The notes beneath the pieces were generated by a model. The model searched no databases, had not been told where the DNA came from, and worked only from the letters and a program-made list of their open reading frames with translations. A program made the translations under genes and the position numbers. A stretch of DNA of 64,000 bases from Bdellovibrionales bacterium (GTDB lineage: Bacteria > Bdellovibrionota > Bdellovibrionia > Bdellovibrionales > UBA1609): positions 1,536,001 through 1,600,000 of the forward strand of contig OZ241329.1 in assembly GCA_965199825.1 (NCBI GenBank), in the 5' to 3' direction. Shown here piece after piece: positions 21,843 through 64,000 of this stretch (its first letter is position 1; every line of letters begins with the position of its first letter).

Positions 21843-21858
21843 AATGACATTGCCCCAG
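21843..21858 (+). repeat. Single copy of RAYT-associated motif AATGACATTGCCCCAG
   Basis: Exact reverse complement of 63048-63063; same orientation relative to its transposase gene. Confidence 0.85.
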
Positions 21859-21867
21859 CAAATATGA

Positions 21868-21896
21868 TTGTATTTTGATATATATAAATATAGTTT
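21868..21896 (+). promoter_or_regulatory. Putative sigma70 promoter giving a leaderless transcript of the Y1 transposase
   Basis: TTGTAT-N17-TAGTTT, 6 nt before ATG 21903, no RBS; same geometry as the paralogue. Confidence 0.55.
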
Positions 21897-21902
21897 ATAG
21901 AA

Positions 21903-22430
21903 ATGAAACAGCTCTCATTTTTTAATCTCTCAAACCGGAAGAATTACGGTGGCGAAATGAAAGGCCGTCGCAAAACAATGCGGCCTTTAGACAAGAAGCG
22001 TTTACATCACGTGATTTTGAAATCGCGGCATGCCAAGGGCGACCGAAGCTTTAAAAAGTTCGACATGCAGATCCAATATAAAAATTTAATTTACTCAAAA
22101 GCTAAGAAATATGGAGTGCGTATTGCTGCCTATAGCAACGTGGGCAATCATTTTCATTTGCTCATCAAGTTTCAAGATCGCAATTTGATCAAAACTTTCT
22201 TTAAAGTGATTGCCGGAGTGATCGCGCGTCTTGCGGTTGGTGCACAAAAAGGCAAAAGGTTTGGCCGTTTTTGGGATTCGGTGCTGTTCACTCGCATCAT
22301 TAGCAAAGGTCGTGATGAACTTCGCATTTTTGATTATGTAGAAGCAAATTTAATTGAAGCGCACTTTGGGAAAGCGGCTCGTAAACATTTTGAAATGATT
22401 TGTAAGGAGTATTGGAAAGATCTTTTTTAA
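21903..22430 (+). mobile_element. HUH/Y1 tyrosine transposase (IS200/RAYT-like), copy 1
   Basis: HHVILKS, NVGNHFHLL (HUH), FWD..FTRI, catalytic-type DYVEAN; no tnpB adjacent. Confidence 0.85.
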
Positions 22431-61978: not shown

Positions 61979-62426
61979 TTGGGCGGGTTGTTGGGACGGG
62001 ATCGTGGGCTTGGGTTGTTGCGGGTCGGTGTTGAGGTGGGGCTGGGTTTGGGGTTGGGCTGGGGCTTGGGTGTGGGTCGAAGTGGGCTTTGCGTTGGGGT
62101 CGTAGGAGCGGGTTGGGATTTGGGTGTGGGTTTTATGTGGGATCGGTATGAGCGGGTTGGTTGGGCGTAGGGATGCAGGGCATGCGTTGGGTTGGCGTTT
62201 GCTTTAACGACGCGGGCTGAATGTGGGAGCGGGGTATGTGGTTGAGTTGCGCTTTGGCTTGCTTTGGGCGTCGCAATGCGGGCAGCAATGGGGTTCTGCT
62301 AATGGTCGGCGCGGGGGGTGGGTATGTGGTTTGGGTTAGTAGGACCGCGAGCTGCTGGTGCTCCCATCTAGGTTCTGTTTGCACTCACATTTTACTGTTT
62401 ATAGATTTAACTTTCTGATTTTAATC

Positions 62427-62984
62427 CTACGTCTTTAAATTCATTTTATTTATATATTTATTTTTAAATTTTAGCCAATACGCCCGTCGCCGTTCTTCAA
62501 ACATTTTGCGAAATTCAATGCTGATTGCCGACTCAAGTCTGTTGGCCATCAGATAATCAAAAATCCGAGCCTCATCTAATCCTTGCGAAACAATTCTTGT
62601 AAACACAACTCCATCCCAGAAGCGGCCAAACTTATTCCCTTTTTGAGCCTTAGTCACTATTCGTGCAATCAACCCAAGCGTCACTCTAAAAAACGTTTTT
62701 AAGAGATGAGGTTTATTAAAGCGAATGAGCAGGTGAAAATGATTTCCGACGTTTACGAATTCAGCAATTCGTATTCCATAACGATGAGCCTTTTCGTAAA
62801 TTAAATTTTCAAGCTGTTGACGATGACAAATGTTCTTAAAGCTTAATCGTCCTGTCGCAAGCTGGGACTTCATAACCACATGATGCAATCTCTTGTTGTG
62901 AATTGGCCGTGCGGTTTTTCGTTTCTTGGAATTTCCACCGTAAGATTTTGCATTGCTAAACTTAATTAATTCGAGTTGTTTCAT
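62427..62984 (-). mobile_element. HUH/Y1 tyrosine transposase (IS200/RAYT-like), copy 2
   Basis: HHVVMKS, NVGNHFHLL, FWDGVVFTRI, DYLMAN; colinear with 21903-22430. Confidence 0.85.
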
Positions 62985-62990
62985 GTGCGA

Positions 62991-63019
62991 ATTATATAAT
63001 TACTATTTAGTTGGTTCAA
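62991..63019 (-). promoter_or_regulatory. sigma70 promoter giving a leaderless transcript of transposase copy 2
   Basis: Minus strand TTGAAC-N17-TATAAT, 6 nt before ATG 62984. Confidence 0.7.
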
Positions 63020-63047
63020 TTGTTTTTTTGAACTCGTTGAGATTTTT

Positions 63048-63942
63048 CTGGGGCAATGTCATTCTCAGAAATTATAAGTTTTTGTGATTAAGTGTGAACT
63101 TCTGCTGATATTGAGTTGTTGCCCAAAATTAAAATTTTTAAGCAGAACTAAAAAAAATTTGTATTCACGGGCAATGTCATTTTGTGTCAGCATTCAAATT
63201 TAACTCAGTAAATTTCTCAAGATTAAATCGAAACCCACATTAGGGCACAGTTTGGGAGTAACAGCAAAAACTCCGGTGGTGTTCAGTTGTGGTTGATTTA
63301 ATTTCTGCCGGGATAAGTGTTTTCGTTGGGGCAATGTCATTTGATGCGCTTGTAGGAATTTGTTGTTCAGGCTCAAACTTTTCTGAGCGGAATTAAAATA
63401 ATATGCTGTTGAGGGGCAACGTCATTTTCTCTCAGCATTTCAATTTGTGTCACGGTTTTTAAATGCGATCGAGAGGGACTCTTAGCTAAACATCTTAAAA
63501 AGTTAGGTCACAGTTTCATGAAAAACTGTAAACTCCGGTGGTGTTCAGTTGTGATTAAATTAATTTCTGCCAGAGGTGAGTGTTTTGGTTAGGGCAATGT
63601 CATTCGCAGCGGCAACAATTTTCTATGATGAACTTTGCAAATTCGGTTGTGTTAGATTGTTGCACAAGCTTAGATTTTTTGAGCTGAACTCAGGTGATTT
63701 TTTGCGAGGGGCAATGTCATTTCTCACCAGCATTTTCTCCTGATTGAATCGAAACCCACCTCAGGACACAGTTCATGAAAAACTATAAACTCCGTGGTGT
63801 TCAGTTGTGAGATCAGGTGTCTTCATTAAGGCAATATCATTTCATTACAAGAATTTCGGAAGCCTATAAAAAAACCTTTATATCTTAAGTAAGCAGATTG
63901 GAATTCAAACTTTCTGTTAACTTAAAAATGGGCAGTGTCATT
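63048..63942. repeat. Array of 8 GGGCAATGTCATT motifs with alternating A/B spacers (higher-order period about 240-280 bp); may continue beyond the window
   Basis: Copies at 63051, 63169, 63329, 63414 (AAC variant), 63592, 63709, 63829 (2 mismatches) and 63930 (AGT variant). Confidence 0.9.
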
Positions 63943-64000
63943 TTTCACTGAATGCACCTGCATAAAAATATGCCAGGTGAATCAATCAACTGTGAAGTGA

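What the first reader, a model, noticed from the sequence alone, without database searches (positions are those of the whole stretch)
62427..64000. HUH/Y1 (RAYT-like) nuclease gene followed by a structured ~1-kb non-coding array with a conserved 13-mer and alternating A/B modules
Seen: upstream of the intact Y1 gene lie 8 same-orientation copies of GGGCAATGTCATT (core AATG-T-CATT palindrome), start-to-start spacing 118, 160, 85, 178, 117, 120 and 101 bp, with no ORF in the track. Spacers alternate. A-type spacers end in TTGTTG...TTTT.AGC.GAA(C/T)T (63116-63149, 63360-63394, 63657-63690) and two contain a hairpin (GCTCA...TGAGC; AGCTTAGA..TTTGAGCT). B-type spacers carry CAGCATT...GGNCACAGTT...AAACTCCGGTGGTGTTCAGTTGTG, giving dimers of 278, 263 and 237 bp. 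The 13-mer is far better conserved than the spacers. Known: RAYTs are domesticated HUH enzymes flanked by REP/BIME repeats, but classical REPs are GTAG/GGAG-anchored hairpins in inverted pairs. Inference: this direct-oriented modular array could be a different HUH substrate or product, such as a cassette array built by ssDNA cut-and-join at the 13-mer, or a transcribed array of RNA units.
Basis: partly seen in the sequence, partly recalled or inferred. Interest (0 to 1): 0.85.

Follow-up and report, generated by a model that had tools for sequence, protein, structure and literature searches.

The report
Transposase-like gene with private motif array
A predatory-type bacterium keeps 14 old but intact copies of a transposase-like gene, each preceded by one to eight same-direction copies of a short DNA word that is likely the protein's own docking or cutting site; the eight-copy array here is the largest, and it looks like a locally duplicated set of such sites, not a cassette or RNA array.

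Summary
Eight same-strand copies of GGGCAATGTCATT lie at 63051-63942, upstream of an intact Y1/HUH gene (62427-62984, minus strand), with alternating A/B spacers.

Genome-wide, 14 of 14 paralogs of this gene carry 1-8 gene-sense copies of A-AATGACA-N-TGCCC-C upstream: 45 copies, none antisense. These account for 38 of the 49 genome hits with up to one mismatch.

The paralogs are ancient (dS above 1), all intact, and under strong purifying selection (dN/dS 0.05-0.09). The spacers are locus-specific.

In the window array the motif keeps 100 of 104 positions, while related spacers are only 51-67% identical.

The motif corresponds to the TA(T/C)A(T/C)TGCCCC box, a -10 element plus GC-rich tail, that abuts the start codon of homologs across Bdellovibrionota (71 of 80 loci).

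It forms no hairpin, and its "palindrome" is not the conserved feature.

Best reading: a REPtron-like pairing of a domesticated Y1 protein family with a hairpin-less cognate site, multiplied locally. The cassette and RNA-array readings found no support.

The scan had already found this family at another locus of the same genome (e1-9304101).

Binding and cleavage remain untested.

The parts
62427..62984 (-). Y1/HUH (IS200-like, RAYT-like) gene of 185 aa; HUH at H82-F-H84, catalytic Tyr144 in DYLMAN
   Evidence: ORF. PF01797 at 29.8 bits against cut-off 23. Motifs conserved in 14 of 14 paralogs. AlphaFold pLDDT 85.6. Foldseek hits to IS608 and ISDra2 TnpA and to 4er8.
62991..63019 (-). Promoter-like TTGAAC-17-TATAAT that ends 7 nt before the ATG; no Shine-Dalgarno sequence, so the transcript is predicted to be leaderless
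   Evidence: Consensus scan, 10 of 12 positions. An equivalent TATA-rich box sits 5-12 nt before the ATG in all 14 paralogs. Function is inferred.
63051..63063 (-). Motif copy 1 (proximal, exact); reads AATGACATTGCCC in gene sense, 79 nt upstream of the ATG
63064..63168 (-). Spacer A1
   Evidence: 64% identical to A3
63169..63181 (-). Motif copy 2 (exact)
63182..63328 (-). Spacer B1; carries AAACTCCGGTGGTGTTCAGTTGTG on the + strand
   Evidence: 67% identical to B2
63329..63341 (-). Motif copy 3 (exact). In a related strain (run X4) similarity to this array stops right after this copy.
63342..63413 (-). Spacer A2
63414..63426 (-). Motif copy 4 (1 mismatch)
63427..63591 (-). Spacer B2
63592..63604 (-). 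Motif copy 5 (exact)
63605..63708 (-). Spacer A3
63709..63721 (-). Motif copy 6 (exact)
63722..63828 (-). Spacer B3
63829..63841 (-). Motif copy 7 (2 mismatches)
63842..63929 (-). Spacer C (unique)
63930..63942 (-). Motif copy 8 (distal, 1 mismatch); end of the array
21843..21855 (+). Single exact motif copy of a second family member in the same window, 60 nt upstream of its ATG
21903..22430 (+). Second Y1 paralog (175 aa, 54% identical to the first)

Best explanation
The 13-mer (full site A-AATGACA-N-TGCCC-C) is most likely the recognition site of the Y1/HUH protein family encoded next to it, and the 0.9-kb array is most likely a locally duplicated, selection-maintained cluster of eight such sites rather than a cassette or RNA array.

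Shown:
- The gene belongs to a 14-member paralog family that arose within this lineage.
- Every member is intact, keeps its catalytic residues, and has been under purifying selection since divergence beyond synonymous saturation.
- Every member has the same motif upstream, always in gene sense, in 1-8 copies.
- The sequences between copies are locus-specific.
- The motif does not fold into a hairpin.
- In other Bdellovibrionota the homologous genes carry TTGAC-N17-TA(T/C)A(T/C)TGCCCC immediately before the ATG. That is a sigma-70-type promoter whose -10 box and GC-rich tail correspond to the motif here.

Inferred:
- The box began as the left-end/promoter signature of a small IS200-like element. 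There, transposase binding would overlap its own promoter, as in many insertion sequences.
- In this lineage the box became detached from the promoter but stayed under selection because the proteins still bind it, and perhaps nick and rejoin it.
- New copies arise by local duplication whose junctions tend to fall at the motif. The cause would be either HUH cut-and-rejoin between two sites on single-stranded DNA or slippage on the 13-17-nt repeat.
- Because spacers decay while all eight motif copies persist, the extra sites are predicted to be used, for example for cooperative binding or autoregulation, or as repeated substrates.
For: Association with the gene family:
- 17 Y1 genes are found by tblastn. 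All 14 close paralogs have 1-8 motif copies within 1200 nt upstream: 45 copies at up to 2 mismatches, 0 antisense. The 3 distant paralogs have none.
- 38 of the 49 genome hits at up to 1 mismatch lie in these upstream tracts. The reversed-pattern control gives 1 hit.
- The motif is not enriched in 30 relatives, which have 1-15 hits each against 49 here.
- No other gene recurs beside the 14 loci.

Selection on the genes:
- Paralogs are 49-85% identical, and HUH and Tyr are kept in 14 of 14.
- dN/dS is 0.045-0.087 with dS 1.07-2.6 for the 10 pairs within the closest group of five paralogs. dS is saturated in 74 of 91 pairs.
- The 14 paralogs form one clade, SH-aLRT 98, in a quick tree.

Selection on the motif:
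- The motif has 4 mismatches in 104 positions, while A and B spacers are 51-67% identical.
- The position matrix gives a 16-17-nt site with one free position.

Spacers are local:
-.

Motif at repeat borders:
- Loci 155843 and 591678 read M-X-M-X-M, with unrelated sequence outside the outer motifs.
- A contig of a roughly 94%-identical strain (run X4) carries a differently ordered array. Its similarity ends right after motif copy 3.

Homology of the motif to the promoter/left-end box:
- 71 of 80 homolog loci from other Bdellovibrionota have NANANTGCCC within 300 nt upstream. 61 of them have a -35-like hexamer 16-18 nt before it.
- The same pattern holds in loci L001-L009 and L220-L235.
- L054 and L071, from a GC-rich genome with only 42% protein identity, carry the exact AAAATGACATTGCCCC. 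Their mutual homology starts at that motif and ends at the gene's 3' end.

Fold:
- IS608 and ISDra2 TnpA (E 8e-5, probability 1.0) and RAYT 4er8 (TMq 0.49, rmsd 4.4).
Against: - No binding or cleavage data exist. That the Y1 proteins are the motif's reader is argued only from exclusive co-occurrence.
- The motif lacks the hairpin that every characterised Y1 enzyme (IS608, ISDra2, TnpA-REP) needs. Mean ssDNA MFE is -4.9 kcal/mol against -4.6 for shuffled sequence.
- At locus 423043 the repeated tract starts 81 nt before the first motif, so repeat borders do not always coincide with the motif.
- Gene orientation relative to replication is 7 co-directional to 7 head-on (my tally). The strand bias expected for lagging-strand ssDNA activity is absent.
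- In relatives the box is an ordinary-looking promoter, so part of its conservation there may be promoter function alone.
- Copy number varies from 1 to 8 between loci, so no fixed number of sites is required.
- The X4 evidence is one low-depth contig (depth 4.78).
Confidence: 0.55

Rival explanations
1. Only the proximal copy matters, as an autoregulatory operator or left-end relic. The rest of the array would be a by-product of replication slippage or unequal crossing-over on a short direct repeat in an AT-rich non-coding tract, with no role for the distal copies.
For: - 11 of 14 proximal copies are exact, while distal copies carry more mismatches.
- Two loci have a single copy.
- Copy number and spacing are irregular: 54-738 bp, with only weak 10.5-bp phasing (Rayleigh p about 0.02 before correcting for three periods tested).
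- Relatives nearly always have one copy; only 2 of 80 loci have more than one within 300 nt.
- Short tandem repeats of other kinds also lie upstream of homologs in relatives.
Against: In the window array spacers have decayed to 51-67% identity, yet 6 of 8 motif copies are exact and all eight together carry only 4 mismatches in 104 positions. Neutral extra copies should have decayed along with their spacers. Independent arrays at 12 of 14 loci need a motif-linked cause.
Confidence: 0.2
2. The units would be cassettes captured or exchanged by HUH-catalysed single-strand cut-and-join at the 13-mer, analogous to an integron.
For: - HUH chemistry allows excision of a circle between two direct sites and its re-insertion (established for IS608 and Rep proteins; my recollection plus the introduction of PMC8266576).
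- M-X-M-X-M borders at two loci.
- The strain variant breaks at a motif.
Against: - Units are not shared between loci. The one exception is a 33-43-nt piece common to loci 423043 and 853684.
- The window's units occur nowhere else in the genome.
- There are no conserved ORFs.
- Units within a locus are related to each other, which is duplication rather than capture of foreign DNA.
Confidence: 0.08
3. The motif is read by a host factor, such as a regulator, sigma factor or nucleoid protein, rather than by the Y1 proteins. The arrays would then be regulatory.
For: - In relatives the box is the -10 element plus discriminator of a sigma-70-type promoter.
- The proximal copy lies 10-100 nt upstream of the predicted -35.
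Against: - The motif is practically private to these 14 loci (38 of 49 hits), so a host regulator would have no other regulon.
- Here it has lost the -35 partner and the first T of the -10. Only 9 of 45 copies have any -10-like box nearby.
- The exact motif persists in a genome of very different GC content with only 42% protein identity. That fits co-inheritance with the gene.
Confidence: 0.1
4. The array is transcribed, as tandem promoters or processed small RNA units, with the motif as a start or processing signal.
For: One strong promoter-like site (TTCACA-16-TATAAT, 11 of 12 positions) ends 7 nt before motif copy 1, and three weaker ones lie in the array on the gene strand.
Against: - No Rfam match at E up to 1.
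- Unit folding z-scores run from -2.5 to +1.1 with no consistent strand.
- Only the motif is conserved between loci.
- 9 of 45 copies have a -10-like box upstream.
- The promoter count in the region (6) is within the shuffle expectation (3.8, sd 2.1).
Confidence: 0.05

Closest known systems
REPtrons: TnpA-REP/RAYT genes with their cognate REP/BIME/REPIN repeats (PMC8266576, abstract and introduction read; PMC5581495, abstract and section 'Analysis 4' read)
   Same: - A Y1/HUH protein of the IS200 superfamily that no longer behaves like a recent insertion sequence.
- A private, over-represented oligomer in the extragenic DNA next to the gene.
- A housekeeping-like selection regime.
- A Y-x-x-x-N tyrosine motif, as I recall for class 2 proteins.
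   Different: - REPs are 20-50-nt palindromes with a GTAG foot, recognised as folded ssDNA. They flank the gene on both sides, often as inverted pairs, and are dispersed in tens to thousands of copies.
- Here the site is a hairpin-less 16-17-mer. It occurs only upstream, only in direct orientation, and almost only at the genes themselves.
- A RAYT is typically single-copy. Here 14 diverged paralogs share one motif.
IS200/IS605-family insertion sequences (IS608, ISDra2, IS200)
   Same: Protein fold and catalytic motifs, a small single-gene unit, and lineage-specific proliferation within genomes.
   Different: - No subterminal hairpins and no conserved right end in this genome.
- Copies are ancient rather than near-identical.
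- No replication-strand bias.
- The NCBIfam IS200 model scores far below its cut-off.
Multi-copy or atypical Y1 groups of Quentin et al. (bioRxiv 10.1101/279083; passages read by term search): subclass 2.3 (more than five diverged copies per genome) and class 3 (REPtron-like, atypical structures)
   Same: Several diverged copies per genome without the high intragenomic identity of IS200, and an intermediate IS/REPtron character.
   Different: Those groups are described with hairpin-type repeats or with none. The terms Bdellovibrio, Deltaproteobacteria and 'direct repeat' do not occur in that text. Membership of the present proteins in those subclasses was not tested.
Iterons: direct-repeat binding sites of replication initiators, including HUH Reps such as geminivirus Rep, lying upstream of the rep gene (recalled, no call)
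   Same: Same-orientation repeats of a short site upstream of the gene of the protein presumed to bind them; possible autoregulation.
   Different: Iterons are closely and regularly spaced and belong to an origin. Here spacing is 54-738 bp and irregular, at 14 chromosomal loci, with no origin features examined.

Membership tests
Y1 HUH transposase superfamily (Pfam PF01797, IS200-like) | Domain match above the curated cut-off | tested here: met
   29.8 bits against cut-off 23, E 7.3e-7
Y1 HUH transposase superfamily (Pfam PF01797, IS200-like) | HUH metal-binding motif and a single catalytic Tyr on a C-terminal helix | tested here: met
   H82-F-H84 and Y144 are invariant in the 18-sequence alignment and in 14 of 14 paralogs. 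Y144 lies on helix 136-153 of the model.
Y1 HUH transposase superfamily (Pfam PF01797, IS200-like) | TnpA fold | tested here: met
   Foldseek: 2a6m, 2a6o, 2xma, 2vju and others at E 8e-5 to 6e-4, probability 1.0; 4er8 at E 4e-3
Autonomous IS200/IS605 insertion sequence | Curated IS200/IS605 transposase model (NF033573) reached | tested here: not met
   20.3 bits against cut-off 55
Autonomous IS200/IS605 insertion sequence | Subterminal hairpins at the left and right ends | tested here: not met
   No conserved 3' sequence: the best 9-mer is shared by 3 of 14 loci. No excess ssDNA folding around the 45 motif copies. Some relatives do have GC-rich palindromes past the stop codon.
Autonomous IS200/IS605 insertion sequence | Near-identical copies within a genome (recent transposition) | tested here: not met
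   Highest protein identity is 85%, with dS above 1
RAYT / TnpA-REP (REPtron) | Curated REP_Tyr_transpos model (NF047646) reached | tested here: not met
   21.7 bits against cut-off 80
RAYT / TnpA-REP (REPtron) | Cognate repeat is a palindromic hairpin with a conserved 5' tetranucleotide (GTAG) | tested here: not met
   No hairpin. Position 8 is free, so the short palindrome is not conserved. There is no GTAG.
RAYT / TnpA-REP (REPtron) | Repeats dispersed genome-wide in high copy number | tested here: not met
   38 of 49 hits are at the genes; of the 11 others about half lie inside long ORFs
RAYT / TnpA-REP (REPtron) | Over-represented private oligomer in the flanking extragenic space | tested here: met
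   14 of 14 loci
RAYT / TnpA-REP (REPtron) | Single copy, housekeeping-like evolution, not on plasmids | tested here: inconclusive
   Strong purifying selection on each copy and no tblastn match in 72,556 plasmid or 50,697 phage records. But there are 14 paralogs, and paralogs cluster by genome across the phylum.
Integron-like cassette array | Units are exchangeable cassettes, usually with ORFs, shared between arrays | tested here: not met
   Units are locus-specific and lack conserved ORFs
Iteron array of a Rep-type initiator | Regular, close, helically phased spacing of the repeats | tested here: not met
   Spacings of 54-738 bp. Mean resultant 0.36 at 10.5 bp (p about 0.02, three periods tried), 0.09 at 10 bp and 0.14 at 11 bp.
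Known RNA family / structured RNA array | Match to an Rfam model, or folding energy below shuffles | tested here: not met
   0 matches at E up to 1; z from -2.5 to +1.1

The most novel reading that the evidence does not exclude
A new kind of REPtron. A family of domesticated HUH enzymes recognises a linear, hairpin-less 16-17-nt site derived from its own ancestral promoter/left end. By single-strand cut-and-rejoin between sites, it builds and maintains direct-repeat site arrays beside each of its 14 genes. This would be an HUH-driven local repeat generator whose sites are kept by selection.
Probability: 0.2. Interest if true: 0.75.

Novelty: new variant of a known kind. Interest (0 to 1): 0.6.

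Why it matters
All Y1/HUH enzymes characterised so far (IS608, ISDra2, TnpA-REP) read folded DNA hairpins. What domesticated members do for the cell is an open question.

This is a phylum-wide family in Bdellovibrionota, found in 73 of 201 sampled genomes, often in many copies. Its conserved DNA partner is a short linear box fused to the promoter.

In one genome that box has come loose from the promoter yet is still kept, in arrays, next to 14 anciently diverged and individually selected genes. That gives a clean test system: one 17-mer and 14 natural protein variants.

Two questions become testable. Can a Y1 enzyme use an unstructured site? Why would a host, or the element itself, preserve many copies?

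It also cautions that motif arrays next to nuclease genes need not be guide-RNA or cassette arrays.

Tried and rejected
- RNA evidence. No RNA holder was listed for the stretch. Three polyA RNA runs with the same species label (X7-X9) gave 0, 0 and 2 reads over 20 kb, so the organism is not in them and expression could not be tested.
- Metagenome scan with the 15-mer AAATGACATTGCCCC. None encodes a Y1 homolog by tblastn at E 1e-5, so these are chance hits. No further arrays were found this way.
- The search for homologous proteins returned only the genome's own paralogs: 12 proteins, all on the 2,777,499-nt contig.
- Complex prediction (homodimer test) was not available. The queue was full, so nothing was folded.
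- Micro-ORF reading of the motif (ATG-ACA-NTG-CCC). Rejected by eye: the ORF lengths that follow differ from copy to copy, and the third codon positions are invariant.
- REP-like hairpin GGCCATCGTGGCC, seen beside homologs in one relative. It has only 6 exact plus 3 one-mismatch copies in G026 and 0-3 in the other genomes searched, so it is not an abundant REP family.
- Replication-strand bias: none (7 to 7).
- Conserved neighbouring gene: none.
- Conserved right end: none.
- Literature. Searches for 'Bdellovibrio'+'RAYT' (9 papers) and 'Bdellovibrio'+'IS200'+'transposase' (4 papers) listed nothing on this family by title or abstract.
- The careful tree search did not finish, so the quick IQ-TREE tree is what is reported.
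Full report
**Observation**

The window's last 1.6 kb holds an intact 185-aa gene on the minus strand (62427-62984). It matches Pfam Y1_Tnp at 29.8 bits against a cut-off of 23. It falls far below NCBI's curated cut-offs for both REP-associated tyrosine transposase (21.7 against 80) and IS200/IS605 transposase (20.3 against 55).

Upstream of it lie eight copies of GGGCAATGTCATT, all on the + strand and therefore all reading AATGACATTGCCC in gene sense. They sit at 63051, 63169, 63329, 63414, 63592, 63709, 63829 and 63930. Five are exact, two have one mismatch and one has two. The window holds 14 matches at up to two mismatches, against 2.93 expected; 0 of 100 shuffles reach 14.

A units are 51-64% identical and B units 56-67%, against 35-53% for unrelated pairs. 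The motif differs at only 4 of 104 positions.

The array ends at the eighth copy. About 190 nt further on, just outside the window, a gene on the same strand ends with a terminator-like hairpin.

Four mechanical ORFs of 42-58 aa overlap the array. No match to them elsewhere in the genome turned up.

**Genome-wide picture**

The window is part of a 2.78-Mb contig of a 2.84-Mb genome. tblastn finds 17 Y1 genes. Fourteen are close paralogs, 49-85% identical and all intact, with the HUH motif and the Tyr of D-Y-L-x-A-N kept. Three are distant, at 30-37% identity.

Every one of the 14 has the motif upstream in gene sense. There are 45 copies at up to two mismatches within 1200 nt, 1-8 per locus, and none antisense. 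The three distant genes have none.

Of the 49 genome hits at up to one mismatch, 38 lie in these upstream tracts. The reversed-pattern control gives 1 hit. Of the other 11, about half lie inside long ORFs and look like chance; a few are intergenic orphans.

A second family member with one exact copy lies in the same window (motif 21843-21855, gene 21903-22430). No other gene recurs next to the 14 loci, and no conserved sequence follows the genes.

**What exactly is conserved**

The position matrix of the 45 copies gives A-AATGACA-N-TGCCC-C. Position 8 is free (T28, C9, G7, A1).

Folding each copy as single-stranded DNA with 35-nt flanks gives a mean of -4.9 kcal/mol, against -4.6 for shuffled sequence. 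Pairing probabilities are flat across the site. There is no REP-like hairpin.

Only 9 of 45 copies have a -10-like hexamer in front. Promoter-like sites in the region number 6, which does not exceed the shuffle expectation of 3.8 (sd 2.1). There is no Rfam match at E up to 1. Folding z-scores of the units range from -2.5 to +1.1 with no consistent strand.

**Age and selection**

Among the five closest paralogs dN/dS is 0.045-0.087 with dS 1.07-2.6. In 74 of 91 pairs dS is saturated. The 14 genes form one clade (SH-aLRT 98) in a quick tree of 93 family members (the careful search did not finish).

They therefore multiplied within this lineage long ago. Each copy has since been kept intact at its own locus, which is not what decaying transposon copies look like.

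The family has no tblastn match in the plasmid or phage collections. Gene orientation relative to replication is 7 co-directional to 7 head-on, with the origin near 0.96 Mb and the terminus near 2.34 Mb (my tally).

**The spacers**

The window's spacers occur nowhere else in the genome. The only outside match is a 40-nt promoter-proximal piece shared with locus 507560.

Across all 14 loci, only the 35-75 nt next to the start codon are shared. The exception is one 33-43-nt piece common to loci 423043 and 853684. Within loci the units are related to each other at 75-98% over the aligned segments. The arrays therefore grew locally and at different times.

At loci 155843 and 591678 the repeat reads M-X-M-X-M, with unrelated sequence outside the outer motifs. 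At locus 423043 the repeated tract starts 81 nt before the first motif, so the coincidence of borders with the motif is frequent but not universal.

One Logan contig from another run (X4, depth 4.78) is about 94% identical over 63032-63501. It then jumps back to 63246-63342 and continues with unlike sequence right after motif copy 3. This suggests strain differences in unit order with a break at a motif, but it is a single low-depth contig.

**Where the motif comes from**

A profile of the family finds it in 73 of 201 sampled genomes of the phylum at E up to 1e-10, often with many matches per genome. A scan of species-representative genomes gave 371 relatives. The 80 best are nearly all labelled Bdellovibrionota MAGs.

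In 71 of those 80 loci a box NANANTGCCC lies within 300 nt upstream. The commonest forms are TATATT (52), TATAGT (7), TACATT (4) and GACATT (3). In 61 loci a -35-like hexamer lies 16-18 nt before it. Only 2 loci have more than one copy within 300 nt.

In most of these loci the ATG follows within 1-6 nt. In relatives, then, the box is the -10 element plus a GC-rich tail of the gene's own promoter, at the left edge of a 600-850-bp unit.

Two loci of a GC-rich genome (L054, L071; 42% protein identity) and L088 carry the exact AAAATGACATTGCCCC of this genome. It lies about 60 nt upstream of the ATG in L054 and L071, and 285 nt upstream in L088. The homology between L054 and L071 begins at the motif and ends at the gene's 3' end.

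In the quick tree the 14 genes group, at support 90, with L054 and L071 and with other loci that lack the TATATT form.

In this genome the genes have a separate TATA-rich box 5-12 nt before the ATG and no Shine-Dalgarno sequence. The motif is no longer the core promoter, yet it is the best-conserved non-coding sequence at all 14 loci.

**Interpretation**

The simplest account is that the box is the family's left-end signature, read by the Y1 protein itself. Ancestrally it overlapped the promoter, as transposase-binding ends often do. Here it is detached but retained, and it has multiplied by local duplication.

The proteins have the IS608/ISDra2 TnpA and RAYT fold. The closest known arrangement is a REPtron (PMC8266576, introduction; PMC5581495, abstract and Analysis 4).

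The differences are substantial:
- the site is hairpin-less;
- it occurs only in direct orientation and only upstream of the gene;
- it is hardly dispersed elsewhere in the genome;
- one motif is shared by 14 paralogs.

Because the spacers in the window have decayed while all eight motif copies persist, I infer that the extra copies are used. Possible uses are cooperative binding or autoregulation, or service as repeated substrates. Whether the enzyme also creates the duplications, by cut-and-rejoin between sites on single-stranded DNA, or whether slippage does so, cannot be told from sequence.

The cassette model is disfavoured by the locus-specific, ORF-less units. The RNA-array model finds no support but could not be tested with expression data.

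**Relation to earlier work of this scan**

Note e1-9304101 described the same family from another locus of this genome. It reported 17 lone Y1 genes, each subfamily with its own signature at the promoter, and one signature spread to about 300 places.

I reproduced the count of 17 genes and the private signatures. I also reproduced the spread of the other subfamily's word, ACCTTCGTTCAC: 247 sites at up to one mismatch, against 11 for the control. I did not test the claim that some of those sites lie in essential genes.

That note also pointed me to the three papers cited here. In the Quentin et al. preprint, the terms Bdellovibrio, Deltaproteobacteria and 'direct repeat' do not occur. Two literature searches listed nothing on this family.

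**Verdict**

The RAYT-like reading is right in spirit, while the cassette and RNA readings are not supported. This is a new variant of the Y1-protein-plus-cognate-repeat theme. Binding and cleavage remain untested.

Noticed in passing
window 61979-62400 (genome 1597979-1598400): A roughly 400-nt tract just 3' of the Y1 gene. It is extremely G-rich on the + strand and so C-rich and G-poor on the gene's sense strand (C fraction 0.41-0.56 per 100 nt; genome 99.9th percentile 0.40), with degenerate TGGGTT/GGGGCT repeats. Only 6 such tracts exist in the 2.78-Mb contig, and 2 lie beside genes of this family. Eight of the 14 paralogs have milder C-rich, G-poor 3' flanks. This might be a Rho-utilisation-like region; that is speculation.
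   Followed up: partly
window 21843-22430: A second member of the same Y1 family in this window: a 175-aa gene on the + strand with a single exact motif copy 60 nt upstream.
   Followed up: yes
genome-wide; e.g. G000:C1:1215002 (126 nt upstream of distant paralog 1215128): The three distant Y1 paralogs belong to a second subfamily with a different signature, (T)ACCTTCG(C/T)TCAC, near their starts. That word occurs at 247 mostly solitary sites at up to 1 mismatch (control 11). It is thus dispersed like a REP, in contrast to the private motif studied here.
   Followed up: partly
genome-wide; locus upstream of G000:C1:247000 (-830 to -92): The most abundant 12-mer of the genome is GCGGGCACGACA/TGTCGTGCCCGC, with 168 copies. 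Tandem copies of it fill the space between the two Y1 motif copies at locus 247000. Earlier scan notes tie this word to a multi-copy HNH gene family.
   Followed up: no
all 14 paralog loci, 5-12 nt before each ATG (window 62985-62996 and 21889-21902): All 14 genes have a TATA-rich -10-like box directly before the start codon and no Shine-Dalgarno sequence. Relatives have TATATTGCCCC 1-6 nt before the ATG. The family appears to be expressed from leaderless or near-leaderless transcripts.
   Followed up: partly
L001 (-496 to -440), L003 (-420 to -290), L010 (-474 to -330), L015 (-218 to -196), L088 (upstream 700 nt): Homolog loci in other genomes often have unrelated short tandem repeats (7-, 14-, 17- and 40-nt units, and microsatellites) a few hundred nt upstream of the Y1 gene.
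   Followed up: no
L021/L022 3' flank; L002, L007, L022, L032 5' flank; L090/L097 3' end: In some relatives the unit is flanked by GC-rich palindromes (GGCCATCGTGGCC, CTGAGAGC-N4-GCTCTCAG, repeated GCGCGGCCGGC). This hints at hairpin-type ends or REP-like elements there that are missing in this genome.
   Followed up: partly
window 63032-63501 versus a contig of run X4: A related strain (about 94% identity) has a differently ordered array: the tail of one B unit is identical to this genome's B1 tail, and unlike sequence follows motif copy 3. This is one contig at depth 4.78.
   Followed up: partly
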